Source of the DNA: an uncultured Bacilli bacterium
GTDB taxonomy: Bacteria; Bacillota_I; Bacilli_A; RF39; UBA660
Length of the DNA: 64,000 bases
Assembly (NCBI GenBank): GCA_934101425.1
Contig: CAKOQQ010000001.1
Coordinates: 35,781-99,780 of the forward strand
Reading direction: 5' to 3'
The translations under genes and the position numbers were made by a program. Below, piece after piece: positions 8,004 to 45,733 of the stretch. Position 1 is the stretch's first letter; every line of letters begins with the position of its first letter. The notes below the pieces were generated by a model. It was not told where the DNA came from. It saw only the letters and a list, made by a program, of their open reading frames with translations, and searched no databases.

Positions 8004-8031
8004 AGAAAAAAAATGAACTTTTATGTTCATT
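8004..8031 (-). terminator. Rho-independent terminator after pilin gene 8027..8950
   Basis: Hairpin AATGAAC-ataaaa-GTTCATT followed by a run of 9 T on the minus strand. It overlaps the stop codon. Confidence 0.6.
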
Positions 8032-8950
8032 TTAATTCTATTCTTTTTCCATGATTTTTAAACCATTTAATTACAACTGCATTTTTAACATCGTCGCCGC
8101 CAGTAATAGTTAATATTTTATATTTACTATTATACCAATTATTTTCTTCATAATAAGGGACATAAAACCCATTTTCTTTATCTATTGCATATAATATAAC
8201 ACCTTTATTAGCTTTTATGGTACTACCAAAAGGAAAATCTATTTTGTCAAAAGCTCCTGAAGTAAATCCGGCAGTAATACCAAAGGCACTAATTTGTAAA
8301 TCCATTGGTAATGGGGCATCAAACGGCAAATAAAGTGATGTAATACCTATATACTTTTTGCCATTAGAAGTAAATGTCAAGTTAGCATCTGATAAATCTA
8401 TTAGTTTATTAGCTTGTGAAGTAAAACCATCATTATAAGTAGAAACAGTACTAAATTTGTATCCTGTATCATCTAAAAGCCAAGTTGTATTAGTTAAATC
8501 TGTAACATCTTTATTTAATTCAATATAATTATCGGGTGTTTCTTCTTTTCCGTCTTCTTTCACTTCTTCAAATGTGCAATTCTTTTCACTTTCTTTATTA
8601 CTGTTTATAGTACCGTTAGCACTTATTTCTATGCAATAACCCGAAATGTACATTTTTCCATATGCATTACCTTCTTTATCATACTTTAAATATCCTTTGC
8701 TAGCCTTATCACCATCATAAGTAAATGGGCTATTCGATAAATCAATTTTATCTGTGTTTATATTATCCATTATATTTTGCAAATAATATGCTTTTGCTGC
8801 ACTCACTACATTTCTTGCGCTTGCTTCTGCCGCTGCTTTTTTAGAGTCTTCTATAATATTTAATACTGCTGGAGTTGCTATTAGTGCTATTACTGCTAGT
8901 ATCACTATTACGGCTAGTAACTCTATTAGTGTAAACCCTTTCTTTTTCAT
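8027..8950 (-). CDS. Type IV pilin-like protein with a class III signal peptide. One of three paralogs of about 300 aa.
   Basis: The N-terminus MKKKGFTLIELLAVIVILAVIALIATPAVLNIIEDSKK is a prepilin motif (G|FTLIE with Glu at +5). The first ~125 aa are near-identical to 38575..39474 and 44825..45733 (shared GYC(I/V)E...NGT motif), and the C-terminus is divergent. I trimmed the start to the internal ATG. Confidence 0.8.
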   Translation of the reverse strand: MKKKGFTLIELLAVIVILAVIALIATPAVLNIIEDSKKAAAEASARNVVSAAKAYYLQNIMDNINTDKIDLSNSPFTYDGDKASKGYLKYDKEGNAYGKMYISGYCIEISANGTINSNKESEKNCTFEEVKEDGKEETPDNYIELNKDVTDLTNTTWLLDDTGYKFSTVSTYNDGFTSQANKLIDLSDANLTFTSNGKKYIGITSLYLPFDAPLPMDLQISAFGITAGFTSGAFDKIDFPFGSTIKANKGVILYAIDKENGFYVPYYEENNWYNSKYKILTITGGDDVKNAVVIKWFKNHGKRIELK

Positions 8951-8971
8951 ATATCCTCCTCTATTTATAAG

Positions 8972-9007
8972 AAAACAAAAAAACAAAAAAACTAGGAATT
9001 TCCTAGG
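8972..9007 (-). terminator. Terminator-like or attenuator hairpin plus U-tract in the pilin leader (copy A)
   Basis: Minus-strand stem CTAGG-AAATT-CCTAG followed by TTTTTTTGTTTTTTTG. It lies between an upstream small ORF and the pilin RBS. Copy B at 45758..45792 has the same arrangement with a G.U-compensated stem. Confidence 0.45.
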
Positions 9008-9039
9008 TTTTATGTTTTATATATATGACTAATTACTAT

Positions 9040-9099
9040 TTAGTTAGTAAATAATATCGCCCAAGAAATATAAGAAGTATTATTTTTTGTATTAGCCAT
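9040..9099 (-). CDS. Conserved 19-aa upstream small ORF (MANTKNNTSYISWAILFTN), a possible leader peptide, preceding the pilin gene
   Basis: An ATG with an AAGGAAGT RBS 7 nt upstream. Its paralog at 45815..45880 encodes MANTNYNASHICVRVYLITIY. The first ~11 codons are conserved and the rest diverges. The six-frame track misses it because it is under 60 aa. Confidence 0.4.
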   Translation of the reverse strand: MANTKNNTSYISWAILFTN

Positions 9100-9122
9100 A
9101 CATTTACTTCCTTACTATATTA

Positions 9123-9151
9123 AGTATATATCTTTTCTATTAAGTTGTAAA
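9123..9151 (-). promoter_or_regulatory. Promoter TTTACA-17-TATACT driving the small ORF and the pilin gene (copy A)
   Basis: -35 TTTACA at plus 9146..9151, a 17-nt spacer, and -10 TATACT at plus 9123..9128. The identical architecture recurs at 45904..45932. Confidence 0.45.
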
Positions 9152-9165
9152 GAAGAATATATTAT

Positions 9166-9810: not shown

Positions 9811-9818
9811 ATATACTC

Positions 9819-10841: not shown

Positions 10842-10842
10842 A

Positions 10843-11394: not shown

Positions 11395-11441
11395 ATTATC
11401 ACATCTTAATTATATCATAACTAAAAATAAAAAACCACTCA

Positions 11442-11660
11442 CTATTTAGTGAATGGTAAAATTGCCATAAATCTAGCTTTTTTAACTTCTTGAGCAATAT
11501 GTCTTTGATGTTTTGCACATGCACCAGTGATTCTTCTTGGTAAGATTTTACCTTTATCACCACTTACATATTTTTTTATAATATCAGCATCTTTGTAATC
11601 AACGCTTTTTCCTGCACACATTTGACATATTTTTTTCTTTTTTCTATAAAATTCTGCCAT
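11442..11660 (-). CDS. rpsR: 30S ribosomal protein S18
   Basis: 72 aa ending [10 protein letters not shown], an S18 signature. It follows ssb. Confidence 0.9.
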
Positions 11661-11673
11661 GTTTTCCTCCTTA

Positions 11674-12132: not shown

Positions 12133-12142
12133 TTTATACCTC

Positions 12143-12433: not shown

Positions 12434-12528
12434 TTCTACACCTCCTTATGGACTTTTGGCCTGTTTAGGCAAGGAGTAATTTAATACTCGTAATGATTAT
12501 AGCAAACTTAAATTATTTTGTAAAGCAT

Positions 12529-19827: not shown

Positions 19828-21441
19828 TTATTCACTTAATTCTTTTTCTAATTTACCTTGTTTATCACCAAGTATACTTCTTTGTTCATTTACTTTATTT
19901 ATAGCAGAATTTATAGTATCTATATAAGTTACAAAGTTTGGTGTACCATTTGTTCTTACCCCAAGAGCTGATGATGTAAATGTATATTTTAGAAGTCCTA
20001 ATTCTTTATCAATCGAATTACCTATTTTTAATACTTGGATACTATTAAAAGTAGTTTCATTATATATTCTATCTATTTCATCTTGTAAAGCTACCATTTC
20101 CTCCATGATAGAATTTATATCAGAATTACTATTACCATTAGCAGCTTTAACTGATAATTCATTCATTCTTTGTAATATACTATGAGTTTCTGTTAGTGCT
20201 CTTTCCATTATCTTTATCGCACTAATTAGATTTCGTTTATATGAATCCATATCATCAGGGTTTAATTCTTTGCCTACTAATTTATCTAATATAACCTTAT
20301 TAGCAGTTATTTTATCATCAGTTATATTATTTATATCAATAATAGTTAAGCCTGTTGCACTAAATTTCAAACTAGAATCATTTACTGAATTAGCTATTTC
20401 ATCTAAATTTCTTTTAAATAAAGTATTTGCTTCTATAATAAGTGCTTTTTTATCTATTTCAGTATTAGTAGCCATTAAAGCTTGTACATGTAACTCTTGA
20501 GCTCTAGATAATACTTTAGTATATAAAGCTCTTTTACAAGCCTCATCTGCACATGATTCTAAAGATTTACTATATTCTAATGAATTTTGATATGCTCCAA
20601 ATATACTTCTTTGTTCACTTACTTTATTTATAGCAGATTCTATTCTTTTCATATAATCTTTAAAATCAGGAGTTGTTCTTTGCTTTACATCTAATCCTTC
20701 TGAATTAATAGTATATTTTAATAAATCTACTATTTCATTAAACATATTATCTTCTTGTAAAACTTTTTCATTTTGAAAAGATGTTTCATTATATATTCTA
20801 TCTATTCCATCTTGTAGCTCTATTAGTTCATCCATAATAGAAGCTATATCAGAACTTGTATTAGTATCATTTGCAGCTTTAACTGATAATTCATTCATTT
20901 TTTGTAATATGCCATGAGTTTCTGTTAGTGCTCCTTCAGCAACTATAATTTCACGTAATAATAAATCATTAAAATTGGCACTTGACTTACTAACACAACT
21001 AGCACTAGTAGTAAACTCTTCTATTAAAAATTTATCTTCTTCTATACTATAATAATTACAATATTTATCATTATAAAATACTGCTGACACTAGTAATCTA
21101 TTAGTCTTACGAATATATCCTGTAGTATCATTCAAAGCTTTATCCATACTTACCGTTTCATTTTCTACTGTTACACCTTTAAGTTCTAAAACATTAATTT
21201 TACCTTCTGTTAATGAATAATAACTATCTTTCTCATCACCATTTAAAAAATCATAATTATTTACACTTCTCATTACACTTTGTACAGAAGCTTTAAAAGC
21301 TTCTCTTTTTGAGTCTTCTACAATATTTAATACAGCAGGTACCGCTATTGCTGCAATTATTGCTAGTATTACTATTACTGCGAGTAACTCTATTAGTGTA
21401 AATCCTTTCTTACTTTTATAATTACCTTTTACTTTCTTCAT
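19828..21441 (-). CDS. Type IV pilin-like protein fused to two tandem flagellin D1-like units (pilin-flagellin chimera)
   Basis: The N-terminus MKKVKGNYKSKKGFTLIELLAVIVILAIIAAIAVPAVLNIVEDSKRE is a prepilin signal. The body contains AEGALTETHGILQKMNELSVKAANDTNTSSDIASIMDELIELQDGIDRIYNETSFQNEKVL. This is near-identical to the B. subtilis Hag D1 N-helix (AEGALTETHAILQRVRELVVQAGN...EIDGISNRTEFNGKKLL). It also contains IESAINKVSEQRSIFGAYQNSLEYS, matching the Hag D1 C-helix (AINQVSSQRAKLGAVQNRLEHT). A second unit follows (ALTETHSILQRMNELSVKAANGNSNSDINSIMEEMVALQDEIDRIYNETTFN; INSAINKVNEQRSILGDKQ). The flagellin D0 termini are absent. Confidence 0.85.
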   Translation of the reverse strand: MKKVKGNYKSKKGFTLIELLAVIVILAIIAAIAVPAVLNIVEDSKREAFKASVQSVMRSVNNYDFLNGDEKDSYYSLTEGKINVLELKGVTVENETVSMDKALNDTTGYIRKTNRLLVSAVFYNDKYCNYYSIEEDKFLIEEFTTSASCVSKSSANFNDLLLREIIVAEGALTETHGILQKMNELSVKAANDTNTSSDIASIMDELIELQDGIDRIYNETSFQNEKVLQEDNMFNEIVDLLKYTINSEGLDVKQRTTPDFKDYMKRIESAINKVSEQRSIFGAYQNSLEYSKSLESCADEACKRALYTKVLSRAQELHVQALMATNTEIDKKALIIEANTLFKRNLDEIANSVNDSSLKFSATGLTIIDINNITDDKITANKVILDKLVGKELNPDDMDSYKRNLISAIKIMERALTETHSILQRMNELSVKAANGNSNSDINSIMEEMVALQDEIDRIYNETTFNSIQVLKIGNSIDKELGLLKYTFTSSALGVRTNGTPNFVTYIDTINSAINKVNEQRSILGDKQGKLEKELSE

Positions 21442-21759: not shown

Positions 21760-24666
21760 CTATCTAGTTCTTCCACCAGTAGTATTTTCATTTACTTCTT
21801 CTGGAGGAGTTAATCCTAATGCTGCATAGAAGTTATTAGCATCATCTAATGAAATACTACTATCCATACTATTTTCTGATTGTACTTCTACAGGTGCTGG
21901 TGGTTCTACTGGCAATTCATAAATAGGTTCACTGCCAGCATGCCCAACTGGAACAAATTCTTCTTTTATAAGTTCATCATTTTCATTAACTTTTGAATCT
22001 TTTGATTCTTCAGGAGTTTTATTTACGTCATCATATGAAATTCCTAATGATTCATAGAAATCTTTAACATCATCTTCTGAAATTCCACTATCTAATTTAT
22101 TTTCACTTGAACTTGGATTTCCATTTGGATTATTTTTATCAACTGTAACATTTACTTGATTTCCATTTTTTTCTGCATCAATTATAGAATCTCCATAATT
22201 TGCATCTATATTACCATTATCATTATATACATATTCTCCACTACCATTTATTATAGATTCACCTGGATTTAATATAATTTCACTTAAATCTGGTGTAACT
22301 GGAGTTGGATCCGGAGTTACAGGTGTTGGATCTGGTGTAACTGGAGTTGGGTCCGGAGTTACAGGCGTTGGATCCGGTGTAACTGGAGTTGGATCTGGTG
22401 TAACTGGAGTTGGATCTGGTGTAACTGGAGTTGGATCCGGAGTTACAGGTGTTGGATCTGGTGTAACTGGAGTTGGGTCCGGAGTTACAGGCGTTGGATC
22501 CGGTGTAACTGGAGTTGGGTCTGGAGTTACAGGTGTTGGATCAGTATTTGATGGTGTAGAAGGTGTAGTTGGAGTCTTATCAGGAGTTGTTTTATCTGTC
22601 TTTGTTGGTGTTTCAGTATTAGTATTATTTTTTTCTTCTTCTAAATCATCAAAGTTAAATGTAGGCATTTCTACTTCATCTACTATGCCAGTAGTTGGAG
22701 CATCACTTATATTTCTAGTATTTGCATCACAACCTTTTAATCCTACTAAAAGCCCTGCTACTACTAATCCTCCAGCAGCAATTTGTTTCTTATGTTTTTT
22801 AACCCATTCTAATGCTTCTTTACCTTTTTCTCTCATTTTTTTACCAAGGTCTTTTAAAGCAACTATTACGCCTTTCTTTTCAGCGTCATTTTTTAATTCG
22901 TTAGATGCTGGTTCAAAAGCAACAACTGGAACTACTGTTTTACCTTTATCTTTTTCAGGTTCTACTACTGGAGCAACTGGTACTACTGTAGTTTTTTCTT
23001 CCTTTTCTTCTTCTTTAGTTTCTTCAGCAGCTGGAACAAGAATATTTTTAGGAATTTCAACCTTAAGTAATTCTTTACCATCTGGTCCAAAAATTACTAT
23101 AAAGTTTCTTCCATCTTTATCTTGGTTAACAACACCATTTAATGGTGTTGCACCTGTACCAAGTACAAATGGAACTGCTGTTTTATCTTTTTCTTCAGGT
23201 TCTACTACTGGAGCAACTGGTGTCACTGGAGTTTCTTCTTTAGCTTTTTCTTCAGCTTCTTTCTTTTCTGCTTCTTTTTTAGCTTTTATAGAAGCATCTA
23301 AATCACCAACTATATGATCTATAGTTTCAGAAACATTGAATTCAATAAATGCTAATCTTGATTTAGTAGCTGCTATACCTGCAACTAATTCATCTCTTTC
23401 AATTCTATCTAATCTTTGTTGTGATTTATTTATTTTCTTAGCATCTTCAGCTATTTCTTTATTTATTTTTTCTATTTCTGTTTTTAATGGTTTTGTTAAT
23501 TCTCTTAATCTATCAATATTACCACTTAACATGCCTTTTTCACTTCTTAAAGTATGCATTGTAGTCATATTTCTAGTAATTTCTTGATTTTTTCTTTCAA
23601 TTTCAGCTCTTAGGTGTTTTCTCATTGGATGGTTTTGACTAGGTAGACCATCCATTTCTTTTTGTCTTTGTTCAATTATTCTTTGAGCTGATATATTTGC
23701 AGCTTCTAACTTACGAACTTCATTATTAATTTCTGCAATTCTAGCTCCATTAGCTTTAATTTCATCAGTATAACTATCTAAGTCATTTTGTTTAGATTCT
23801 TTTATTTCAGTTAATCTAGCACCTAAAACACCACGATAATTATCTTCATTTGATAATTTTTCTTCTAATTCAGCTAATCTGGGTTCATATTTAGCTAATG
23901 CATCTTCTAGTTGTATTCTTTCTTCACTTCTAGCTGCTGCATCTCTAAGTAAGAATTGTTTAGGTAATCTATCTCTATATTCTTCTAACTTAGCCATTAC
24001 AACTTCTTCACTAATGTTACCTCTTTCAACATCAGTAATTAAATCATTTAATGAAGTTGCAAAATTATATTCAGCTAACATAGATTCAGTACTAGCATTC
24101 TTAATTTCAGTATTTAATCTAGTTATTTCAGCTCTATCAGCATCTTTTAATGCTTCAATATCAACTGTTGCACTACCTGTAGTAGCTTCTTCTTGTTCTT
24201 TTATTGCTTCTTCAAGTTCATGTATGTTAGCATTTAATTCTTCTAAGTCGCTATTTCTTTTAGCAGCTCTTCTTTCTAATCTTTGAATATTAGAATCTAA
24301 AGTAGTAAGTAAAGCTTGATCATTATATTGTTCAGCTAATTCTCTATTTTTTCTTTCTTGTTCTAATCTTCTATCGATACCAATAATATCAGCTGCAAGT
24401 CTATCACTTCTAGCAATCATATCTTCTAAGTCTACTTTATTTTGTTCAACACTATTGTCATATAAAGCAACTCTACCAGTTCTATAATTTTCATCATTTT
24501 TTAATTTTTCTTCTAATTCGCTAATTCTTCTTTCAGCACGTTCAGTAACTCTTCTTGCTTGATCAAATCTTTTAGCTTGTTCACTAATAGTTACTTCATC
24601 TAATCCGTCAATAGGTAATTGACTTTTTAAATCTCTTAGACTTTTTAATATTTCTTCTCTTTCCAT
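21760..24666 (-). CDS. Large membrane protein with four parts. There is an N-terminal coiled coil of about 470 aa, then a single transmembrane segment, then a PT-rich linker of 14 tandem DPTPVTP repeats, and a C-terminal region.
   Basis: 968 aa with no signal peptide. The first ~470 aa is a heptad-rich R/E/L/A/D-rich sequence. The hydrophobic segment is IAAGGLVVAGLLVGL. The tandem repeat is (DPTPVTP)x14. Two C-terminal motifs have the pattern DDxxxFYxxLG(I/L). Confidence 0.6.
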   Translation of the reverse strand: MEREEILKSLRDLKSQLPIDGLDEVTISEQAKRFDQARRVTERAERRISELEEKLKNDENYRTGRVALYDNSVEQNKVDLEDMIARSDRLAADIIGIDRRLEQERKNRELAEQYNDQALLTTLDSNIQRLERRAAKRNSDLEELNANIHELEEAIKEQEEATTGSATVDIEALKDADRAEITRLNTEIKNASTESMLAEYNFATSLNDLITDVERGNISEEVVMAKLEEYRDRLPKQFLLRDAAARSEERIQLEDALAKYEPRLAELEEKLSNEDNYRGVLGARLTEIKESKQNDLDSYTDEIKANGARIAEINNEVRKLEAANISAQRIIEQRQKEMDGLPSQNHPMRKHLRAEIERKNQEITRNMTTMHTLRSEKGMLSGNIDRLRELTKPLKTEIEKINKEIAEDAKKINKSQQRLDRIERDELVAGIAATKSRLAFIEFNVSETIDHIVGDLDASIKAKKEAEKKEAEEKAKEETPVTPVAPVVEPEEKDKTAVPFVLGTGATPLNGVVNQDKDGRNFIVIFGPDGKELLKVEIPKNILVPAAEETKEEEKEEKTTVVPVAPVVEPEKDKGKTVVPVVAFEPASNELKNDAEKKGVIVALKDLGKKMREKGKEALEWVKKHKKQIAAGGLVVAGLLVGLKGCDANTRNISDAPTTGIVDEVEMPTFNFDDLEEEKNNTNTETPTKTDKTTPDKTPTTPSTPSNTDPTPVTPDPTPVTPDPTPVTPDPTPVTPDPTPVTPDPTPVTPDPTPVTPDPTPVTPDPTPVTPDPTPVTPDPTPVTPDPTPVTPDLSEIILNPGESIINGSGEYVYNDNGNIDANYGDSIIDAEKNGNQVNVTVDKNNPNGNPSSSENKLDSGISEDDVKDFYESLGISYDDVNKTPEESKDSKVNENDELIKEEFVPVGHAGSEPIYELPVEPPAPVEVQSENSMDSSISLDDANNFYAALGLTPPEEVNENTTGGRTR
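22292..22542. repeat. Coding tandem repeat with a 21-nt unit (42-nt super-unit), about 12 copies, encoding DPTPVTP
   Basis: ggtgtaactggagttggatcc / ggagttacaggtgttggatct alternate on the plus strand within CDS 21760..24666. Confidence 0.85.
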
Positions 24667-32382: not shown

Positions 32383-32412
32383 TTTACAAAAAAAGATAGA
32401 ATAATCTATCTT
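32383..32412 (-). terminator. Rho-independent terminator of pilin paralog A
   Basis: AAGATAGA-ataa-TCTATCTT followed by TTTTTTTG on the minus strand. It overlaps the stop codon. Confidence 0.6.
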
Positions 32413-33647
32413 AATTTATCTCTACTTACTTCTATAACTGGGCGCACACCGGGGCCGCTTGCATTAGCCACGTTGTTGTCGTGGCTCAAGATGCCAATGT
32501 AGTAAACGGTAAAAGCGGTGTTAAAATTGCCGGAATATGCAGTATTTGTCCAGTATGCACCGGCACTAGAATCAGCTACATTACATCCATATGTTGTACA
32601 TTCTCTTGTATTATCAAATAGCCATGCATATCTGTTTGTTCCTGCTGCTCCTTTGTATTCTGTATTTGAATTTGTATGGAAGTAATAACGGTTATTATTC
32701 CAATTTGGATATCCTGTTATTTTTGCTATTTCACTTGCTTCTATTAGTCTAGCTGTACTTTTAACAGCACCATTCCAAGAAGCTATATCATTTTCTAATT
32801 GTGTTTTTACTTCAACTGGACCATTGGCATTTTTTCCACTTGATGCCCATGCAACTTTTGCTGTTGTATTATGATCTAGTAGTAAATTAACTGTATTATT
32901 TCCTTCATCATTAAATGCATACCATTTCATACATCCATTACTTTTACTAGTATTTGATGTAGCTTCTTCTTTAGAACAAACACTATTACTATTTGGATTA
33001 AAATATATAGCTGTTCCATTTGCATATTTATTATTTGATACATATACATTTCTATATACTGTCGAGCTTATTCCTTTTGTATCTGTAGCTGTATATTTTA
33101 CTTGATATATTCCTTCAGCACTCATCACTAAATTACTTTTATCTATAACTATATTTGATATGGCATTACCATCAGAATCAGTTGCAGAGGCACCAAGTTC
33201 AGTATAAGTAGCATTTAAATTATAAGTAACCATTGGTGATCCATTAAAATTTATTATAGGAGACTTTTCTCCATCTCTAGTAGTAATAGTACTTTCTACT
33301 ATATCATAAGTATAAGTTTCACCTTTTTTCTTTATTTCAATTGTAAGAGCATCATCAAAATATTTATCATCATTAGGATTTTTTACTTCTTTTTTTATTA
33401 GTCCTGAACTTTTTAATTGACCTAATGTTATTTTAACAACAAATTCTTCTTTTCTTGGAAGTAAGCCTGAATTAGCACTTGCATAAGCCTGAACTGCTTC
33501 TATTATTGTACTTATTTGTGTATTATAAGCTTTTTCTTTTGATTGCTTTATATATTTATTTACTGATGGTACTGCAATTACTAGTATTAGCGACAATATA
33601 ACTATTACTGCTAGTAATTCTACTAATGTAAAACCTTTCTTTTTCAT
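32406..33647 (-). CDS. Pilin-like protein (class III signal) with a DUF5011 Ig-like domain and a C-terminal DUF1566/lectin-like domain. Tandem paralog A.
   Basis: The N-terminus is MKKKGFTLVELLAVIVILSLILVIAVPSVNKYIKQSKEKAY. The Ig-like segment is GSPMVTYNLNATYTELGASATDSDGNAI...YQVKYTATDTKGISSTVYRNVYV. The C-terminal domain (MKWYAF...ARLIEASEIAKITGYPNW...YWTNTAY...GVRPVIEVS) resembles DUF1566. Confidence 0.7.
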   Translation of the reverse strand: MKKKGFTLVELLAVIVILSLILVIAVPSVNKYIKQSKEKAYNTQISTIIEAVQAYASANSGLLPRKEEFVVKITLGQLKSSGLIKKEVKNPNDDKYFDDALTIEIKKKGETYTYDIVESTITTRDGEKSPIINFNGSPMVTYNLNATYTELGASATDSDGNAISNIVIDKSNLVMSAEGIYQVKYTATDTKGISSTVYRNVYVSNNKYANGTAIYFNPNSNSVCSKEEATSNTSKSNGCMKWYAFNDEGNNTVNLLLDHNTTAKVAWASSGKNANGPVEVKTQLENDIASWNGAVKSTARLIEASEIAKITGYPNWNNNRYYFHTNSNTEYKGAAGTNRYAWLFDNTRECTTYGCNVADSSAGAYWTNTAYSGNFNTAFTVYYIGILSHDNNVANASGPGVRPVIEVSRDKLR

Positions 33648-33669: not shown

Positions 33670-33698
33670 ATTATATTTATTTATCTTTTATAAGTCAA
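33670..33698 (-). promoter_or_regulatory. Perfect consensus sigma-A promoter TTGACT-17-TATAAT for paralog A
   Basis: Minus strand: -35 TTGACT (plus 33693..33698), a 17-nt spacer, and -10 TATAAT (plus 33670..33675). It lies directly downstream of paralog B's terminator. Confidence 0.6.
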
Positions 33699-33708: not shown

Positions 33709-33728
33709 AAGATAGAATATTCTATCTT
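33709..33728 (-). terminator. Rho-independent terminator of pilin paralog B
   Basis: Perfect 20-bp palindrome AAGATAGAATATTCTATCTT followed by a run of 7 T. Confidence 0.6.
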
Positions 33729-35002
33729 AATTTACTTTTTAATACGGTAATAACTGGGCGAACACCGAGGAAGTCTGAATCAGCCACGTCGGTGCTGTAG
33801 AAGGAGCCCTCGTTGGACACGAACCAAGCGAAGCCAGAACTGCCGGAATATGCAGTATTTGTCCAGTATCCATAAGTACTAGAATCTGCTACATTACATC
33901 CATATGTTGTACATTTATATGTATTATCAAATAGCCATGCATATTTGTTTGTTCCTGCTGCTCCTTTATATTCTGTTTGTGTATTATCATGAAAATAATA
34001 CCCGTTATTATTCCAATTTGGATATCCTGTTATAGTAGCTATTTCACTTGCTTCTATTAGTCTAGGGTTTAAACTACTTTTCCAAGCTTTTGTATCGCTT
34101 TTTAGTTGTTTTAATGCTGTAATTGGGCCTTTACTATTATTTCCATAACTCCCATACTCCGCTTCTGTTCCACCAGCTTCAATATAATCTTCTTTTGATG
34201 CCCACGCAACTTCATCTGTCGTATTATGGTCTAGTATTAACTTTATATAAAGACTTCCATCATCTAAAAAACTATACCATTTCATACACCCATTACTTTT
34301 ACTTGTATTTATACTAGCTTCTTCTTTAGAACAAACACTATTACTGTTAGGATTAAAATATATAGTTGTTCCATTTGCATATTTATCTTTTATTACATAT
34401 ACATTTCTATATACTGTTGAGCTTATTCCTTTTGTATCTGTTACTGTATACTTTACTTGATATATTCCTTCAGTACTCATAACTAAATTACTTTTATTTA
34501 TAACTATATTTGTTAAAGCTTTTCCATCAGAATCAGTTGCTGAGGCACCTAAATCATTATATGTATCATTTAAATTATAAATAACCATTGGTGATCCATT
34601 TAAAGTTATCTTAGGAGCTTCTTCTCCATCTCTAGTAGTAATAGTGTTTTCTACTACTTCATATATATAATTTTCTTTATTTTTCTTTATTTTAATTGTA
34701 AGTGCATCATCAAAGTATTTATCATCATTAGGATTTTTTACTTCTTCTTTTATTAACCCTGCACTTTTTAATTGACCTAATGTTATTTTAACAGATATAT
34801 TTTCTCTATTTGGAAGTAACTCAAGATTTGTGCTTGCATAAGCCTGTGCTGCTTCTATTATTGTACTTATTTGTGCATCATATGCTTTTTCTTTTGATTG
34901 CTTTATATATTTATTTACTGATGGTACTGCAATTACTAGTACTAGTGATAATATAATTATTACTGCTAATAATTCTACTAATGTGAAACCTTTCTTTTTC
35001 AT
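33722..35002 (-). CDS. Pilin-like protein with DUF5011 Ig-like and DUF1566-like domains. Tandem paralog B.
   Basis: 426 aa. It has the same N-terminal prepilin sequence and the same C-terminal GVRPVITV...KLR ending as paralogs A and C. Confidence 0.7.
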   Translation of the reverse strand: MKKKGFTLVELLAVIIILSLVLVIAVPSVNKYIKQSKEKAYDAQISTIIEAAQAYASTNLELLPNRENISVKITLGQLKSAGLIKEEVKNPNDDKYFDDALTIKIKKNKENYIYEVVENTITTRDGEEAPKITLNGSPMVIYNLNDTYNDLGASATDSDGKALTNIVINKSNLVMSTEGIYQVKYTVTDTKGISSTVYRNVYVIKDKYANGTTIYFNPNSNSVCSKEEASINTSKSNGCMKWYSFLDDGSLYIKLILDHNTTDEVAWASKEDYIEAGGTEAEYGSYGNNSKGPITALKQLKSDTKAWKSSLNPRLIEASEIATITGYPNWNNNGYYFHDNTQTEYKGAAGTNKYAWLFDNTYKCTTYGCNVADSSTYGYWTNTAYSGSSGFAWFVSNEGSFYSTDVADSDFLGVRPVITVLKSKLR

Positions 35003-35021: not shown

Positions 35022-35050
35022 TTAATTATATTTATTTATCTTTTATAAGT
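35022..35050 (-). promoter_or_regulatory. Perfect consensus sigma-A promoter TTGACT-17-TATAAT for paralog B
   Basis: -35 at plus 35045..35050, a 17-nt spacer, and -10 at plus 35022..35027. Confidence 0.6.
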
Positions 35051-35062
35051 CAAGAAATAAAA

Positions 35063-35082
35063 AAGATAGAATATTCTATCTT
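35063..35082 (-). terminator. Rho-independent terminator of pilin paralog C
   Basis: The same AAGATAGAATATTCTATCTT palindrome followed by a T-run. Confidence 0.6.
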
Positions 35083-36332
35083 AATATACTTCTTGATACA
35101 GTGATAACTGGGCGCACACCGTAATTTGAACGGACAACTTGATAATAACGTAATACTCCATCAGAATCAATTATCCAAGCATAATCATTAAATCTAGTAT
35201 ATGCAGTGTTTGTCCAATATCCAAAAGTACTAGAATCAGCTACATTACATCCATATGTTGTACAAGAGCTTGTATTATCAAATAGCCATGCATATTTGTT
35301 TGTTCCAACACTTCCTGTATATTCTGTTGTACTATTATTATGCAAATAATAATAATCTGCACCAGCTGTCCAACTAGGATTATCAGTTATTGTAGCTATT
35401 TCACTTGCTTCTATTAGTCTAGCTGTACTTTTAATAGCACTATTCCAAGAAGCTATATCACTATTTAATTGTGTTAATACTTCTTGTGGGCCATCTTCAT
35501 TAGTACCACTAGATGCCCATGCAACTGTTGCTGTCGTATTATGATCTAATAATAAAGTCATTTTTTCACTAGTTCCATTATCTAATATACTATACCATTT
35601 CATACAACCTGTTTTAGTGCCTGTTGTGCTTACTGCTTCAGCACTAGTACATTTAGCATTTGTAACTGGGTTATAATAGTATACTCGACCACTTACTAAA
35701 TTAGATACTGCACCATCTCTTACTACTACATTTCTATATATTGTTGTAGTAGTTCCATATGAATCAGTTGCTGTATATTTAATATAATATACACCTTTTA
35801 CACTCATATCTAGTGATGATGAATCAACATTAACATCACTTATTACTTTTCCATTATAGTCATAGGCACTAGAGCCTTCTTCTTGATAAGAAGAATTTAT
35901 ACTATAATAAACTACTGTATTTCCTGTCAATTTTATTGAAGGACTATTATTAGTAGTTTCTCTTACCTTTATAGTATCCTCATCTATTTCATATGTATAT
36001 CTATTACCTTTTTTCTTTATAATAAAAGTTAATGCATCATCAAAGTATTTATCATTATAAGGATTTTTTGTATCATTTTTTACAATACCTTCTATCTTTA
36101 ATTGACCTAATGTTATTTTTATTATTTCATCATCGTTTTCTGGCAATATTTCATTATTCATGTTGGCATATGATTCTACAGCATCTAATAATTCACTTAT
36201 TTGAACTTTATATGCTTTTTCTTTTGATTGTTTTATATATCTATTTACTGATGGGACAGCAATTACTAATATTATTGATAATATTACTATTACAGCGAGT
36301 AACTCTACTAACGTAAATCCCTTTTTATTCAT
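35076..36332 (-). CDS. Pilin-like protein with DUF5011 Ig-like and DUF1566-like domains. Tandem paralog C.
   Basis: 418 aa. The N-terminus is MNKKGFTLVELLAVIVILSIILVIAVPSVNRYIKQSKEKAY. It shares the C-terminal domain and ends GVRPVITVSRSILR. Confidence 0.7.
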   Translation of the reverse strand: MNKKGFTLVELLAVIVILSIILVIAVPSVNRYIKQSKEKAYKVQISELLDAVESYANMNNEILPENDDEIIKITLGQLKIEGIVKNDTKNPYNDKYFDDALTFIIKKKGNRYTYEIDEDTIKVRETTNNSPSIKLTGNTVVYYSINSSYQEEGSSAYDYNGKVISDVNVDSSSLDMSVKGVYYIKYTATDSYGTTTTIYRNVVVRDGAVSNLVSGRVYYYNPVTNAKCTSAEAVSTTGTKTGCMKWYSILDNGTSEKMTLLLDHNTTATVAWASSGTNEDGPQEVLTQLNSDIASWNSAIKSTARLIEASEIATITDNPSWTAGADYYYLHNNSTTEYTGSVGTNKYAWLFDNTSSCTTYGCNVADSSTFGYWTNTAYTRFNDYAWIIDSDGVLRYYQVVRSNYGVRPVITVSRSILR

Positions 36333-36495: not shown

Positions 36496-36930
36496 ATGTG
36501 TAATAATAATGAGACAAATAATACTTCATGCATATCTGAAATTTTAGCTGTTATATGTCTTTTACAACAAAACGCTAGTTGCTGTGGTGACACTTGCCTA
36601 GATACTTGTGATAGAGGTTTCTTAGGTTGTGGAACTACTAGTTTAGGTTGTAATACAAGACCTATAATTCTATATACGACTGCAGGAAACGGAACACCAT
36701 TTTCTATGCCAACCACTAAAACAGCATTAACTTGTGATGGTGCTACTTGCTCCAGTGTATGCAGAATTGAAAAAATAGATGGAAATTGTGCAACATTTAG
36801 AGTATTACAAGAAAATACAGATCAAACATCAGCTTATCCTTATGAAGCTACAAACTCATTTTTTACAATGAATTTAAATTGCTTATGTGCAATTAGATGC
36901 TTAAATGATACTTACGTAGAATGCATATAA
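36496..36930 (+). CDS. cotZ: CotY/CotZ-family spore coat or exosporium protein (Cys-rich)
   Basis: 144 aa. DGNCATFRVL and LNCLCAIRCLND parallel B. subtilis CotZ (HGSCATLSLL and LDCFCAINCLNP). Confidence 0.7.
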   Translation: MCNNNETNNTSCISEILAVICLLQQNASCCGDTCLDTCDRGFLGCGTTSLGCNTRPIILYTTAGNGTPFSMPTTKTALTCDGATCSSVCRIEKIDGNCATFRVLQENTDQTSAYPYEATNSFFTMNLNCLCAIRCLNDTYVECI

Positions 36931-37289: not shown

Positions 37290-38519
37290 TTATTTTATAC
37301 CATGAGTACGAATATAATTATGTATTACTTTTGAGCCTTCCTTACCAATGTGATTTATATCACCACTTTTTTCATATCCACTTTTTAAATGTCCTTCGCT
37401 ATTTTTTAATGATTCAGCCACATTTAAGAAATATACATTTTCTTCTTCGCACATTTCAGCTAAATAGTAGTTATATTTGTTTATTTTTTCATTAGTTAAA
37501 TTACCTTTTAAACTAGTAGCTTTTGGTACTGGAAGTATTGATTGAATAACTACTACTGTATTTGGACTAGATTCTTTTATTTCTTTTATTAATTCTCTAT
37601 AGTTAGATATAAAGAAATCTTTTTCTTCTGTTGCAACAGAATTTTCACCAAGAGCGATAATTATTTTTTTTGGCTTCTTTTCTTTTACCATTTCTACTAA
37701 TGTTTTACCGGTTTCTTGATAATTTACATCTATTTTAGCCGTTAACATTTGTTCTGAAGTAGCTCCATTTTTCTTCCATAAAGCTACTGGATAATAACTT
37801 TTATAATATATGAAAGTAGAATCTCCAGCAAATACGAAACTATTCGCATAATTTTCTCCCATATCACTTGTTTCTTTTAATATAGCTTTAGTAAAATATC
37901 CATCTAAACTAAAATCAGTTAAAGATTGTTCAGTAGGACTATTGGTAACTACTTTTACTACTCTAGTTTCTTTAGCTTCATTACCACTATTATCTCTTAC
38001 AGTATATGATACTTCATATGTACCTTCTTTAGTACTATCTATATTATTAGTAATTTTTACATTTTTAGTAATATCTTTATCTAAATTATCTGATGCTGTA
38101 TAACCCGGTTCATTATATTTTTCGTTTTTCTTAAGTACTACAGTGCCACCTTTTAATATAATAGTTGGTTTTATACTATCTTTTATTCTAACTAATTTTT
38201 TAGTACTAACACTTTTTTTACCTTCCCTATAAGTAAAAGTTACTTCATATTTGCCACTTTTATAACTAATATCAGTTACTTCTACATTACTAGTTACATC
38301 TTTCTTCTTATAAGTAGCTTTAAAACTAATGTCTACACCACTTTCATTAGAAATAAAGTATTCTTCACTTATATTTATTTTTAAATTACTTTTAAATATT
38401 AATTTTATTAGTCCTATAAATAAGTATATTATTAAAAATAATACTACTAATGCTGTAAAAACTCTTTTATAATTTAATCTTCTTTTCTTTTTCTTAGCCA
38501 TTTTTATCCTCCATATCAT
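37290..38519 (-). CDS. Membrane-anchored protein with a DUF5011 Ig-like domain and a C-terminal SGNH/GDSL hydrolase domain
   Basis: N-terminal transmembrane helix. The Ig-like segment (IKPTIILKGG...YNEPGYTASDNLDKDIT...GTYEVSYTVRDNSGNEAKETRVVKV) is the same type of domain as in the tandem pilins. SGNH blocks present: VFAGDST, ALGEN, DINH. Confidence 0.6.
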   Translation of the reverse strand: MIWRIKMAKKKKRRLNYKRVFTALVVLFLIIYLFIGLIKLIFKSNLKINISEEYFISNESGVDISFKATYKKKDVTSNVEVTDISYKSGKYEVTFTYREGKKSVSTKKLVRIKDSIKPTIILKGGTVVLKKNEKYNEPGYTASDNLDKDITKNVKITNNIDSTKEGTYEVSYTVRDNSGNEAKETRVVKVVTNSPTEQSLTDFSLDGYFTKAILKETSDMGENYANSFVFAGDSTFIYYKSYYPVALWKKNGATSEQMLTAKIDVNYQETGKTLVEMVKEKKPKKIIIALGENSVATEEKDFFISNYRELIKEIKESSPNTVVVIQSILPVPKATSLKGNLTNEKINKYNYYLAEMCEEENVYFLNVAESLKNSEGHLKSGYEKSGDINHIGKEGSKVIHNYIRTHGIK

Positions 38520-38574: not shown

Positions 38575-39474
38575 CTATATTTTAGATAATACTGTTACTA
38601 ATCCTAAACTTGGTAAGTCAAGTGTCATATACCCATACTCACTATCAAACTCAGTTAATTCAATTAATGATACTTCTTCAGTATTAGGATTTATTAGCAT
38701 AACTAATAAATTATTCATTTCTTCTACTTTAGCGGCTTCACATGTAAATGTTAAAGTTATATTTTTATCATGAGTAAATGATAAAGTATTGCCTTCTTTT
38801 ATAGCTATATCATAAATAGGTGTTAAAGCATCATAATCTTCTACATTTACTTTTACTCCTGTAGTAGTTACTAAATTAGTTGTGTTTTTATTTAAAGCAT
38901 TAAGTAATTCTTCAAATGTAACTATTTCATCATCACTATTAAATCTTTCTACAGCCTTACTTACTAAAGTACTAGAATATCTTTTAGGATTAGATATATA
39001 TACTTTAATATTACTATTTCCAACTAAAATATTTTCTATGATAAAGCCTGCTCTACCATCTGTAAGTACTGGATTATCTTCTATTACTGGTGTTTCTATA
39101 GTGCATTCACTTTCATCTGTTTTAGTGCTTGTAATAGTTCCATTAGATGATACTTCAATGCAGTATCCTGATATATACATTTTACCACTTGCATTACCGT
39201 TAGTATCATAACTAAGTAATCCTTTTTTAGCTTGTTCTCCATCATATTTTAATGTGTTAGTGCTTAAATCAACATTAGAATTTGGCTTATTATCCATTTT
39301 ATTTTGCATATAATGTTTTTTTGCAGTGTCTACTATATTTCTTGCACTTGCTTCTGCTGCACTTTTCTTTGAGTCTTCTATAATATTTAATACTGCAGGG
39401 GTTGCAATTAGTGCTATTACTGCTAATATTACTATAACCGCTAATAGCTCTATTAATGTAAATCCTTTTTTCAT
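38575..39474 (-). CDS. Type IV pilin-like protein, paralog of 8027 and 44825
   Basis: MKKGFTLIELLAVIVILAVIALIATPAVLNIIEDSKK plus the shared ~125-aa N-terminal domain. I trimmed the start to the ATG that follows a GGAAG RBS. It appears co-transcribed with the upstream DUF368-like gene. Confidence 0.8.
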   Translation of the reverse strand: MKKGFTLIELLAVIVILAVIALIATPAVLNIIEDSKKSAAEASARNIVDTAKKHYMQNKMDNKPNSNVDLSTNTLKYDGEQAKKGLLSYDTNGNASGKMYISGYCIEVSSNGTITSTKTDESECTIETPVIEDNPVLTDGRAGFIIENILVGNSNIKVYISNPKRYSSTLVSKAVERFNSDDEIVTFEELLNALNKNTTNLVTTTGVKVNVEDYDALTPIYDIAIKEGNTLSFTHDKNITLTFTCEAAKVEEMNNLLVMLINPNTEEVSLIELTEFDSEYGYMTLDLPSLGLVTVLSKI

Positions 39475-40303: not shown

Positions 40304-40351
40304 CTCTATACATTGTATTTATTTATATGGTAAAATATTATTGGTGATGAT

Positions 40352-41734: not shown

Positions 41735-41745
41735 CGTTCTTTTTC
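41722..41745. terminator. Bidirectional terminator between the FAD gene (+) and the P-type ATPase (-)
   Basis: GAACGCTA-aa-TAGCGTTC followed by TTTTTC. Confidence 0.5.
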
Positions 41746-44356: not shown

Positions 44357-44367
44357 AAAAAGTAGAA

Positions 44368-44763
44368 TTATCTTTCTACTTTTCTTTTTACTAATTCTTT
44401 AGCTTTCATAACAGCTAATTCTTTTTTAGCTACTTCATCACCATAAGAAGCAAGAACAGAAACCATTATCTTATCATATTTAACAGAAACACCAGCATAT
44501 CTAGAATTAGACATTACATAATGATCTACATCACTTGGTAATACTTTACCACTTAAAATTCTATTTTTTAATTCATGGCATTTAACAAGTGACATCTTTT
44601 TTGTATCTATATCTACAAAAATAGGTGTTACACTAATTCCAGCATCTTTCATTAATGTTTCAAATATTTGATAAGAAACTTCTCCTCTTTCAAATTTAGA
44701 TAATCTAAAACCAATTTGCATAACTTCAGGTGAAGTTAAAACATCTCTATAATTTTTTTCCAT
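44368..44763 (-). CDS. Hypothetical cytoplasmic protein
   Basis: I trimmed the start to MEKNYRDV, which follows a GGGGGT RBS. A candidate TTGACA-17-TATTAT promoter lies upstream. I do not recognise a family. Confidence 0.35.
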   Translation of the reverse strand: MEKNYRDVLTSPEVMQIGFRLSKFERGEVSYQIFETLMKDAGISVTPIFVDIDTKKMSLVKCHELKNRILSGKVLPSDVDHYVMSNSRYAGVSVKYDKIMVSVLASYGDEVAKKELAVMKAKELVKRKVER

Positions 44764-44824
44764 ATTAAAACCCCCATTTGTGTTATATATAATAACACCA
44801 AAATAGGAGTTTGTCAAAATTTAA

Positions 44825-45733
44825 CTATACCTTCATTGCAAACATCGTAGGGCCAAGGATTGGTAATGTTACAGTTGCATATCCATTTTTTTCGTCATAA
44901 TCACTTAAAGAAACAAAATATACTTTTCCAGTTTCAGAATCTACTTGTATAACTATTAAATCTTCTTTTGTTAGATTTTTAATACCTTCTGATTCTATAA
45001 TAAGTTCTATTTCTGAACTTGTTTCAAAAGATAATGTATTATTTTCTAAGATAGCGATATCATAAAAACTAGTAAATATTTCATAATTATTTAAATTAAT
45101 AACTTCGCCACTAGTATTTTTAATATTTTCTGTTGTATCAACAGACAAGTTAGTTAACATATCTTGTAAGTTCATTGTAGAATTTTCTTTATTGCGATTT
45201 TTTACTACTTCTCCAACAGTTTTGTTAAGATAAGCATCTGGCCTTGCTACATATGCGCCAATATTTGAGTTTCCTGATATAACTTTATTAACAGCAATAC
45301 CATTAAAAGCATCTGAAGCTACTGGATTATCAGTAGTTGTTGAATCATTTTCTATACTACATTCACTTTCTTTTACTTTGTCACTACTTACTGTTCCATC
45401 GCTTTTAATTTCTACACAGTAACCTGATACATACATTTTTCCATATGCATTACCATTCTTATCATAGCTTATAGATCCTTTAGTAGCTTGTTCACCATCA
45501 TATGCTAAAGTCTTTTTGGATAAGTCTATTGTTCCTATGCTTATGTTATCCATTAAATTTTGCATATAATATGATTTTGCTGCACTCACTATATTTCTTG
45601 CACTTGCTTCTGCTGCTGCTTTTTTAGAGTCTTCTATAATATTTAATACTGCAGGAGTTGCAATTAGTGCTATTACTGCTAGTATCACTATTACGGCTAA
45701 GAGCTCTATTAATGTAAATCCTTTCTTTTTCAT
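44825..45733 (-). CDS. Type IV pilin-like protein, paralog of 8027 and 38575
   Basis: MKKKGFTLIELLAVIVILAVIALIATPAVLNIIEDSKKAAAEASARNIVSAAK... Its N-terminal ~125 aa are near-identical to the other two. The C-terminal region is related to that of 38575. Confidence 0.8.
   Translation of the reverse strand: MKKKGFTLIELLAVIVILAVIALIATPAVLNIIEDSKKAAAEASARNIVSAAKSYYMQNLMDNISIGTIDLSKKTLAYDGEQATKGSISYDKNGNAYGKMYVSGYCVEIKSDGTVSSDKVKESECSIENDSTTTDNPVASDAFNGIAVNKVISGNSNIGAYVARPDAYLNKTVGEVVKNRNKENSTMNLQDMLTNLSVDTTENIKNTSGEVINLNNYEIFTSFYDIAILENNTLSFETSSEIELIIESEGIKNLTKEDLIVIQVDSETGKVYFVSLSDYDEKNGYATVTLPILGPTMFAMKV

What the first reader, a model, noticed from the sequence alone, without database searches (positions are those of the whole stretch)
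8027..45733. Seven type-IV-pilin-like genes but no pilus machinery in 64 kb. A conserved 125-aa N-terminal cassette carries variable C-termini.
The pilin-like genes are at 8027, 19828, 32406, 33722, 35076, 38575 and 44825. All carry the G|FTL(I/V)ELLAVIVIL prepilin motif. No PilB/PilT ATPase, PilC platform, PilD prepilin peptidase or PilMNO is encoded here. Three of the genes (8027, 38575, 44825) have near-identical DNA over the first ~375 nt and then diverge completely. The C-termini of 38575 and 44825 are related to each other, and 8027 is unrelated. Dispersed identical 5' cassettes joined to different 3' ends are the substrate for recombinational switching of pilin C-terminal domains. Alternatively, they may encode a family of minor pilins or tip proteins. 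All of these proteins are also much larger than major pilins.
Basis: partly seen in the sequence, partly recalled or inferred. Interest (0 to 1): 0.6.

Follow-up and report, generated by a model that had tools for sequence, protein, structure and literature searches.

The report
Variable family of modular type IV pilins
An uncultured human-gut bacterium carries at least eight dispersed genes in which a type IV pilin "carrier" is fused to different surface modules (lectin-like, Ig-like, flagellin-like, unknown). Strains of the species differ at these genes through recombination, and the design principle itself is already known.

Summary
Exactly seven minus-strand ORFs carry a class III (prepilin) signal peptide, and the 64 kb encode no PilB, PilC or PilD. 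One detail is overstated: the three "cassette" genes are 85-95% identical in DNA only over about 180 nt, then 58-78%. Synonymous divergence (dS 0.28-0.93) shows that selection on the protein explains the similarity, not identical DNA.

These are modular type IV pilins, a kind described by Raynaud et al. 2021. Each has a pilin module, a linker and a grafted module: a C-type-lectin-like domain with or without an Ig-like domain, two flagellin D1 domains, or an unknown fold. Every gene is full length with its own start codon. There are no silent copies.

Related gut Bacilli MAGs encode a compact T2SSF / A24 peptidase / T2SSE cluster elsewhere. I could not locate it in this genome.

The recombination idea is partly right. 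In conspecific strains whose flanks are 99-100% identical, the ortholog of 44825 carries a ~270-bp tract copied from a 38575-type paralog. A third strain has yet another allele, and an eighth pilin gene next to rplQ is replaced. The breakpoint sits at the boundary between pilin module and C-terminal module.

The pilin-flagellin fusion is rare: three clusters among the listed hits of 5.8 billion proteins. Interest is moderate.

The parts
8027..8950 (-). Modular pilin, 307 aa. Type-A pilin module (aa 1-~128) plus an unknown C-terminal module. It lies directly upstream of the S10 ribosomal leader.
   Evidence: N_methyl 32.7 bits. 73% aa identity to 44825 over 128 aa, with an unrelated C-terminus. 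C-terminal family of 14 among the top hits. S10 leader RF03136 at 7848-7955.
8951..9158 (-). Promoter plus structured ~165-nt leader with a small uORF and a terminator-like hairpin. It is a copy of the element upstream of 44825.
   Evidence: 533 bp aligned at 83% to the 44825 upstream region and 5' coding sequence. nhmmer hit. RNA fold z = -4.2. No Rfam family at gathering score in the whole-window scan.
19828..21441 (-). Modular pilin, 537 aa. Diverged type-A pilin module with a 13-residue leader peptide, plus two tandem flagellin D1-like domains (aa ~139-299 and ~351-535) that lack D0.
   Evidence: PF07963 34.6 bits and PF00669 E = 7.7e-26. PDB flagellins 5gy2_C and 9hpz_A align to flagellin residues ~48-220 only. 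Only 3 of the 120 listed clusters have this architecture.
32406..33647 (-). Modular pilin, 413 aa. Type-B pilin module, Ig-like domain and C-type-lectin-like 'domain X'. Third gene of the tandem trio.
   Evidence: PF07963, PF16403 and weak DUF6273. 70% and 57% aa identity to the other two trio genes. Own TTGACT-17-TATAAT promoter at 33670-33698.
33722..35002 (-). Modular pilin, 426 aa, same architecture. Second gene of the tandem trio.
   Evidence: PF07963 and PF16403. Promoter at 35025-35053.
35076..36332 (-). Modular pilin, 418 aa, same architecture. First gene of the tandem trio, and the one modelled.
38575..39474 (-). Modular pilin, 299 aa. Type-A pilin module plus a C-terminal module of the 44825 type. 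A 38575-type gene is the source of the conversion tract seen in strain L088.
44825..45733 (-). Modular pilin, 302 aa. Type-A pilin module (alpha1 at 8-61 and a 4-stranded sheet at 85-119; Cys106 and Cys125 invariant), disordered linker 130-143, and a C-terminal module 147-301 of unknown fold.
45059..45328 (-). Hypervariable central part of the 44825 C-terminal module (gene nt ~406-675). Replaced by 38575-like sequence in strain L088 and by a third allele in L089.
   Evidence: Sliding-window identities. Protein mosaics P0003, P0004 and P0005.
45734..45939 (-). Promoter (TTTACA-17-TATACT, 45904-45932) plus a structured leader. The leader has a uORF (MANTNYNASHICVRVYLITIY) and the terminator-like hairpin CTAGGAAATTCCTGG followed by a T-run (45778-45792).
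   Evidence: RNA fold z = -5.7. No Rfam family.

Best explanation
The seven genes, plus an eighth just outside the window, are a paralogous family of modular type IV pilins in an uncultured, spore-forming gut Bacilli species.

Each protein has a class III signal peptide and a small pilin 'carrier' module: a long hydrophobic alpha1 helix with Glu5 and Pro22, plus a 4-stranded sheet. A short flexible linker follows, and then a grafted surface module.

Inferred mechanism. A prepilin peptidase cuts after Gly-1. A PilB/PilC-type machine encoded at a separate locus then inserts the carrier module into a type IV filament, at the tip or along the body. The filament thereby presents the C-terminal modules (C-type-lectin-like, Ig-like, flagellin-D1-like, unknown) to ligands outside the cell. 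The N-terminal 'cassette' stays similar because it must fit one filament and one machine.

The C-terminal modules, in contrast, diversify. This happens by domain shuffling over long times and by homologous recombination or gene conversion between paralogs and alleles over short times, so conspecific strains display different repertoires.

Shown here: the signal peptides, the pilin fold, the modular architecture, the independent promoter-like sites, the clade-wide expansion, the mosaic alleles between strains, and the presence of the machinery in relatives.

Inferred, not shown: processing, filament incorporation, ligand binding, and presence of the machinery in this very genome.
For: 1. Class III signal peptide with invariant G-1, F+1 and E+5 in all seven genes. 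In alignments of 15 and 40 homologs, G5 (invariant in one, >=90% in the other), F6, T7, L8, E10 and P27 are conserved.
3. Modular design. The linker is disordered. Domain X matches the Lcl C-terminal domain and C-type lectins. The flagellin parts are D1 domains. The same type-A pilin module is joined to at least 9 unrelated C-terminal families among 124 proteins. Domain X occurs on both type-A and type-B modules.
4. 98 of 149 domain-X representatives begin with a prepilin motif.
5. Purifying selection. In the first 40 codons dN is 0.01-0.07 and dS is 0.28-0.93.
6. Machinery in relatives. A T2SSF / A24 peptidase / T2SSE cluster with two small pilins occurs in L019, L063, L086 and L090. In L019 a 412-aa modular pilin lies about 3.3 kb from the cluster. 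The 120 listed PilB clusters are 76-93% identical to the L019 query.
7. Expansion. 113 prepilin ORFs were found in 79 loci of related MAGs, median 368 aa, 77 of them at least 250 aa.
8. Strain mosaics.
9. The published concept: Raynaud et al. 2021, PMC8179133.
Against: 1. I did not find a PilB, PilC or PilD gene for this genome.
2. No small 'major pilin' is present in the window, so it is unclear what forms the body of the filament.
3. Eight or more large modular pilins per genome is far more than in characterised T4P systems, where they are one or two minor subunits. This leaves room for a different mode of display.
5. The mosaic alleles come from metagenome assemblies. The tract is 80-100% identical to the window's 38575, not 100%, and both flanks return to the 44825 context, which argues against a simple chimera. 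It was not checked with reads.
Confidence: 0.7

Rival explanations
1. Programmed antigenic or phase variation of the Neisseria pilE/pilS type. The dispersed conserved 5' segments and shared junction motifs would serve as recombination anchors. Cells would then frequently swap C-terminal modules between loci within one clone.
For: A ~270-bp conversion tract from a 38575-type paralog sits in the 44825 locus of another strain. At least three alleles of the same segment exist among strains with ~99% identical flanks. The gene next to rplQ is replaced between strains. The breakpoints coincide with conserved islands: the DNPV junction and the YDIAI region.
Against: All copies are complete. Six of the seven have their own promoter-like sites, and there is no 5'-truncated silent cassette. 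There is no G4 motif, no convincing inverted repeats and no recombinase gene in the window. Three other samples carry the 44825 locus collinear at 98.9-99.97% identity. The 5' regions have diverged at synonymous sites, so they are not being homogenised often. The rate is unknown, and the data fit ordinary population-level recombination under diversifying selection.
Confidence: 0.1
2. The prepilin-type N-terminus is used mainly as a cleavable membrane anchor or export signal for cell-surface display, as with the archaeal class III signal-peptide sugar-binding proteins. The proteins would not be built into a pilus.
For: The number and size of the paralogs are unusual, and the window has no small major pilin. 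The same domain X also occurs behind lipoprotein signals and plain transmembrane anchors in other proteins, which suggests that the anchors are interchangeable. The machinery in relatives is minimal: no PilM, PilN, PilO or PilT was seen next to it.
Against: Glu+5 and Pro22 are invariant, and the whole alpha1-N is nearly identical among paralogs. By established pilin biology, Glu5 is needed for filament assembly and not for cleavage. The globular pilin head is conserved under purifying selection, which a mere anchor would not require. A conserved assembly ATPase and platform protein exist in the clade.
Confidence: 0.15
3. They are subunits of a competence (Com) pseudopilus or a type II secretion-like pseudopilus, and not of an adhesive type IV pilus.
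For: The leader peptides are short. There are weak matches to ComGC and GspG models. comEC lies about 10 kb from the machinery cluster in L086.
Against: All ComG and Gsp equivalog scores are far below their cut-offs, for example ComGC 31-37 bits against 75. The clade ATPase and platform protein score better as PilB/GspE and PilC/GspF than as ComGA and ComGB. Lectin-like, Ig-like and flagellin-like modules fit ligand binding better than DNA uptake.
Confidence: 0.05

Closest known systems
Modular type IV pilins, e.g. Streptococcus sanguinis PilB (pilin + vWA) and PilC (pilin + lectin) (Raynaud et al. 2021, PMC8179133; Shahin et al. 2023, PMC9934059)
   Same: [quoted passage not shown] Both are monoderm (Bacillota) hosts. 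The best PDB sequence hit of the pilin module is the S. sanguinis pilin PilE1. The architecture IPR012902-IPR032179 is listed in their Dataset S1; equating it with pilin + Ig-like is from my memory of the InterPro number.
   Different: Here there are at least 8 copies in ~75 kb, dispersed and away from any machinery, instead of one or two inside the pil locus. The modules differ: an Lcl/C-type-lectin-like domain X, flagellin D1 x2, and two unknown folds. There is clear allelic mosaicism between strains. No flagellin entry (IPR001029, IPR001492, PF00669) appears in their list of 264 architectures.
Neisseria pilE/pilS pilin antigenic variation
   Same: Pilin genes have a conserved 5' part and variable 3' parts. 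Non-reciprocal transfer of a short tract from one copy to another takes place.
   Different: Neisseria has one expressed gene plus promoterless, 5'-truncated silent copies, a G4-forming element and a high programmed frequency. Here all copies are complete and six of seven show promoter-like sites. There are no silent copies and no G4. The variable part is a separate grafted module and not the pilin head. The frequency is unknown.
Large tip-located minor pilins (ETEC CofB, T2SS GspK)
   Different: Those are single-copy genes within their operons. There is no sequence relationship beyond the pilin N-terminus.
Legionella pneumophila Lcl C-terminal domain / DUF1566-type C-type-lectin-like domains, and the homologous domain in Thomasclavelia ramosa IgA peptidase
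   Different: The similarity is of fold only, at 15-17% identity. The Pfam match is below the gathering score. Ligand specificity is unknown. Here the domain is carried on a pilin.
Bacterial flagellin (e.g. Bacillus subtilis Hag, PDB 5gy2/5wjx)
   Same: The two segments of 19828 align to the D1 domain (ND1 + CD1), including the conserved motif AEGALTETHxILQ(R/K)MNEL.
   Different: The D0 helices at both ends are absent, the domain is duplicated, and it is fused behind a pilin. It cannot be a flagellar filament subunit.

Membership tests
Type IV pilins (type 4 filament subunits) | Class III signal peptide: a short basic leader ending in Gly, then ~20 hydrophobic residues with Glu at +5 | tested here: met
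   All seven genes have it. PF07963 scores 27.9-34.6 bits (cut-off 21.2) and TIGR02532 27-34 bits (cut-off 16.3). The motif scan finds exactly these seven pilin ORFs.
Type IV pilins (type 4 filament subunits) | Pilin fold: an extended N-terminal alpha1 helix packed on an antiparallel beta-sheet | tested here: met
Type IV pilins (type 4 filament subunits) | Cleavage and N-methylation by a dedicated A24 prepilin peptidase encoded in the same genome | not testable with these tools
   None is in the window. Only ~74 kb of the source contig was readable. Related MAGs do encode an A24 peptidase.
Type IV pilins (type 4 filament subunits) | Polymerisation by an assembly ATPase (PilB/T2SSE) and a platform protein (PilC/T2SSF) | not testable with these tools
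   The machinery was found in relatives L019, L063, L086 and L090. The 120 listed clade PilB clusters are 76-93% identical to the L019 query. It was not located in this genome.
Modular pilins (sensu Raynaud et al. 2021) | An N-terminal pilin module fused through a linker to an extra domain that is not specific to T4P biology | tested here: met
   Ig-like PF16403, flagellin PF00669/PF00700 and the C-type-lectin-like fold. The linker 130-143 has pLDDT < 50. One pilin module is joined to at least 9 C-terminal families.
Modular pilins (sensu Raynaud et al. 2021) | The grafted module has a direct role in a pilus-mediated function such as adhesion | not testable with these tools
   This is inferred only from fold similarity to lectins and adhesin domains.
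pilE/pilS-type antigenic variation system | One expression locus plus several promoterless, 5'-truncated silent cassettes | tested here: not met
   All seven are complete ORFs with ATG and RBS. Six of them have promoter-like sites, including TTGACT-17-TATAAT before each gene of the trio; 19828 lay outside the scan. tblastn finds no partial copies.
pilE/pilS-type antigenic variation system | Non-reciprocal gene conversion of the variable part from another copy | tested here: inconclusive
   One ~270-bp tract of 38575 type sits in the 44825 locus of strain L088, and further alleles exist in L089 and L085. The events are seen between strains only, with no rate and no read-level check.
pilE/pilS-type antigenic variation system | A cis element that drives recombination (a G4-forming sequence) | tested here: not met
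   The 64 kb contain no G3+N1-7 x4 motif on either strand.
Flagellin | N- and C-terminal D0 helices required for export and filament assembly | tested here: not met
   Alignments to solved flagellins start at residue ~20-48 and end at ~220 of 270. The two copies sit behind a pilin module. All NCBIfam flagellin scores are at most 127 bits against cut-offs of 282 or more.
Com pilus pilins (ComGC-GG) / T2SS pseudopilins | A match to the equivalog models at the curated cut-off | tested here: not met
   ComGC scores 31-37 bits against 75, and GspG 27-35 bits against 88.85. Only the N-terminal ~60 residues match.

The most novel reading that the evidence does not exclude
An uncultured lineage of gut Bacilli may use the type IV pilin as a general, interchangeable carrier for a large and fast-evolving repertoire of surface modules, with ten or more per genome. 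Inter-paralog gene conversion at the module boundary would generate strain-specific, or even within-clone, variation. That would make this a pilus-based counterpart of the variable surface-protein families of Mycoplasma or Borrelia. One member would present tandem flagellin D1 domains on a pilus. D1 is the part of flagellin that TLR5 recognises; that point is established knowledge and was not tested here. The organism shows no flagellar genes in the DNA I could read, so this member could be a new way for a commensal to engage or decoy host innate immunity.
Probability: 0.2. Interest if true: 0.75.

Novelty: new variant of a known kind. Interest (0 to 1): 0.48.

Why it matters
Modular pilins were proposed in 2021 as a general way to make type IV pili versatile, but they have been studied as one or two minor subunits in cultured pathogens. 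This window shows the principle taken much further in an abundant, uncultured human-gut lineage. There are many dispersed full-length carrier-module genes, more than 6,000 database relatives of the carrier, lectin-like modules as the main cargo, and direct evidence that conspecific strains differ by recombination exactly at the carrier/cargo boundary.

If these proteins are on pili, they are likely determinants of strain-specific adhesion to host or dietary glycans. They would also be likely targets of phages and IgA. The pilin-flagellin-D1 chimera would be a testable new host-interaction molecule.

Tried and rejected
1. Known riboswitch upstream of the pilin genes, such as the c-di-GMP control known for Clostridioides pilA1. 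Rfam at gathering score and at E <= 5 found nothing. A structured leader exists but belongs to no known family.
2. Finding the species' own genome in the GTDB representative collection. 
3. Finding the machinery on the same contig. I extended from the window ends: the ddl product is not on record, and the L18 side gave ribosomal genes plus an eighth pilin but no machinery.
4. Looking for clade PilB hits on a contig of 189,354 bp or on other contigs of this species. There were none among the 120 listed. Three look-ups of PilB clusters gave other samples.
5. Silent cassettes, G4 motifs, invertons and recombinases. None were found.
6. My by-eye impression that the lipoprotein at 52484-52849 and the membrane protein at 24681-26048 are pilin-head paralogs. 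phmmer does not support it at E <= 1.
8. The idea that the 5' 'cassette' is kept identical by gene conversion. I rejected it because dS is 0.28-0.93 in the first 40 codons.
Full report
WHAT IS IN THE SEQUENCE

The window has about 26% G+C and is chromosomal. It contains the S10-spc ribosomal protein cluster, ssb, ychF, parAB, htrA, a P-type ATPase, metK behind a SAM riboswitch, ddl and the spore-coat genes cotJB/cotJC. It is 100% identical to part of a 189,354-bp contig from a Hadza gut metagenome, ENA ERZ4560186 NODE_65. One source names a cluster 73% identical over the pilin module 'MAG... [Bacillales bacterium]'.

The two ORFs that the lister began at TTG (8986 and 39516) really start at the ATG before KKGF.

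All seven pass the Pfam N_methyl and TIGR02532 cut-offs. They keep Gly-1, Phe+1 and Glu+5. Their sizes are 299-537 aa.

NO MACHINERY IN THE WINDOW

Pfam scans of the remaining ORFs show no T2SSE, T2SSF or A24 peptidase (precomputed annotation). phmmer with PilB, PilC and PilD sequences from related MAGs finds nothing in the window, although it finds the Clostridium and Ruminococcus homologs in other loci.

THE 'CASSETTE'

8027, 38575 and 44825 share a 126-128-aa N-terminal module at 71-73% aa identity. The C-termini of 38575 and 44825 are related (33% identity, E = 9e-27). The C-terminus of 8027 is unrelated.

The DNA is not near-identical over 375 nt. Identity is 78-95% over the first ~180 nt and 58-78% over the next ~190 nt. 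In the first 40 codons dN is 0.01-0.07 while dS is 0.28-0.93. The similarity is therefore mainly purifying selection on the protein in an AT-rich genome. It is not recent homogenisation.

8027 and 44825 also share about 205 nt upstream. This stretch holds a promoter, a small uORF and a terminator-like hairpin.

32406, 33722 and 35076 form a tandem trio (52-70% aa identity) with a different pilin module. Each has its own TTGACT-17-TATAAT promoter. 19828 has a diverged version of the first module and a 13-residue leader peptide.

WHAT THE PROTEINS ARE

The AlphaFold2 model of 44825 (pLDDT 83) has the following parts:
- a helix at 8-61;
- a four-stranded sheet at 85-119;
- a disordered linker at 130-143;
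- a separate C-terminal domain at 147-301.

The model of 35076 (pLDDT 79) adds two domains behind its pilin module:
- an Ig-like domain (Pfam PF16403);

19828 carries two tandem copies of the flagellin D1 domain. Alignments to solved flagellins cover residues ~48-220 of a 270-residue flagellin. They include the conserved AEGALTETHxILQ(R/K)MNEL motif but not the D0 helices.

These are therefore modular pilins in the sense of Raynaud et al. 2021 (PMC8179133): a pilin carrier with a grafted module.

HOW WIDESPREAD THE FAMILY IS

More than 6,369 database proteins match 44825, most through the pilin module only. Among the best 120 hits plus the window genes, the same module is joined to at least nine unrelated C-terminal families: domain X in 86, the 44825 type in 15 and the 8027 type in 14.

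Domain X has 304 representatives at E <= 1e-30 and 2,203 at E <= 1e-10 in the library clustered at 50% identity. Of the best 149, 98 start with a prepilin motif. Others start with lipoprotein signals, transmembrane anchors or degenerate GFA-type N-termini.

In 79 loci from GTDB representative genomes, 113 prepilin ORFs were counted. Their median length is 368 aa and 77 are at least 250 aa. At least 10 come from the sampled loci of one MAG. Nearly all these genomes are uncultured 'Bacilli', 'Bacillales', 'Tenericutes' or 'Erysipelotrichaceae' gut MAGs.

The pilin-flagellin fusion is rare. Among the 120 best hits listed for 19828, only three clusters have N_methyl plus Flagellin_N, at 99%, 88% and 28% identity. 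The 99% cluster has 52 member sequences, so the gene is not an assembly artefact. No flagellin entry appears in the 264 architectures of Raynaud's Dataset S1. A literature search found no description of such a fusion.

WHERE THE MACHINERY IS

In related MAGs a compact cluster is present: T2SSF, A24 peptidase, a divergently transcribed T2SSE and two small pilin-like genes. It occurs in L019, L063, L086 and L090.
- In L086 it lies near trmK-sigA-dnaG.
- In L019 a 412-aa modular pilin lies about 3.3 kb from it.
- In L063 a 121-aa pilin follows it.

The ATPase and platform protein score best as PilB/GspE and PilC/GspF and less well as ComGA/ComGB. All scores are below the equivalog cut-offs. The 120 listed PilB clusters are 76-93% identical to the L019 query, which points to a conserved, functional system.

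I could not find the cluster for this genome. Presence of the machinery in this genome is therefore inferred, not shown.

STRAIN COMPARISONS

1. Three other samples carry the 44825 locus collinear at 98.9-99.97% identity.

2. In sample SUZU22-1 (L088) the flanks are 95-100% identical to the window (most 150-nt windows >=98%). The ortholog of 44825 is 93-100% identical (1.00 in eight of nine 45-nt windows) up to nt ~405 and 76-100% after nt ~676. Between them, nt ~406-675 is 80-100% identical to paralog 38575, which lies 6 kb away, and only 38-64% identical to 44825. This is a ~270-bp conversion tract. Its left end lies at the invariant DNPV junction that follows the pilin module.

3. In L089 the flanks are 99.3% identical, but nt ~400-850 are only 62-78% identical, and there is no close donor in the window.

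4. Protein P0004 has a different first ~100 residues on an otherwise 44825-type body.

5. An eighth family member (type-A pilin module + domain X, 338 aa) lies 55 nt after rplQ, just outside the window. Between two strains with 99.7-100% identical flanks it is only 69-82% identical along its whole length. The other strain's N-terminal module is 88% identical to 38575.

Recombination among paralogs and alleles at these loci is therefore real.

I found nothing that would make the variation programmed. There are no truncated silent copies, no G4 motif, no convincing inverted repeats and no recombinase gene. All copies are complete, and six of the seven have their own promoter-like sites.

VERDICT

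The best explanation (confidence 0.7) is a clade-specific, expanded family of modular type IV pilins. Their conserved carrier module is kept by the need to fit one filament and one machine. Their cargo modules diversify by domain shuffling and inter-paralog recombination.

The Neisseria-like switching model fails its defining structural tests, but a slower version of its core process is seen. The anchor-only model cannot be excluded without the genome's peptidase and ATPase and without experiments.

The kind of system is known. What is new is the scale, the cargo modules (an Lcl/C-type-lectin-like domain and tandem flagellin D1) and the documented strain mosaics.

Noticed in passing
window 45734-45939 and 8951-9158 (minus strand): A shared ~205-nt element lies upstream of two of the pilin genes. 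It has a promoter, a conserved small uORF (MANT(N/K)xN...) with its own RBS, a long stem, and a terminator-like hairpin plus T-run ~45 nt before the pilin ATG. The RNA fold z-scores are -5.7 and -4.2. No Rfam family matches. It is conserved in all strains of the species and could be a transcription attenuator.
   Followed up: partly
window 19828-21441: This pilin is fused to two flagellin D1 domains without D0. Only three protein clusters with this architecture appeared among the listed hits of 5.8 billion sequences. The conserved LQ(R/K)MNEL stretch of D1 is retained.
   Followed up: partly
L084 16526-17542 (just beyond window position 1, after rplQ) and window 8027-8950: The S10-spc-alpha ribosomal protein cluster is bracketed by two modular pilin genes. 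One lies directly upstream of the S10 leader and one lies 55 nt downstream of rplQ. The rplQ-adjacent gene is the most strain-variable stretch of the 20 kb compared.
   Followed up: partly
window 21760-24666: A 968-aa protein with a long coiled-coil N-terminal half, a central transmembrane segment and 13 tandem DPTPVTP repeats. It has no Pfam family and is probably a surface or envelope protein.
   Followed up: no
window 37290-38519: A membrane-anchored protein with the same Ig-like domain (PF16403) as the pilin trio, plus a GDSL lipase/acylhydrolase domain. It sits between the pilin trio and 38575. Its Ig-like domain is the only tblastn match to the pilins outside the seven genes.
   Followed up: no
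L019 5637-6657; L063 15180-15911; several representatives: A second class of pilin-like N-terminus (NKKGFA..., hydrophobic stretch, no Glu5) recurs in this clade. It appears both next to the machinery and in front of domain X. These may be a distinct minor-pilin type.
   Followed up: no
window 36496-36930, 60097-61143: CotZ-like, CotJB and CotJC (Mn-catalase family) genes indicate a spore-forming organism. This is notable for MAGs that are often labelled 'Tenericutes' in public records.
   Followed up: no
window 57719-59206: A group II-like chaperonin (Cpn60/TCP-1 family, 495 aa) is encoded next to a radical-SAM/DUF4130 pair. I did not look at it further.
   Followed up: no
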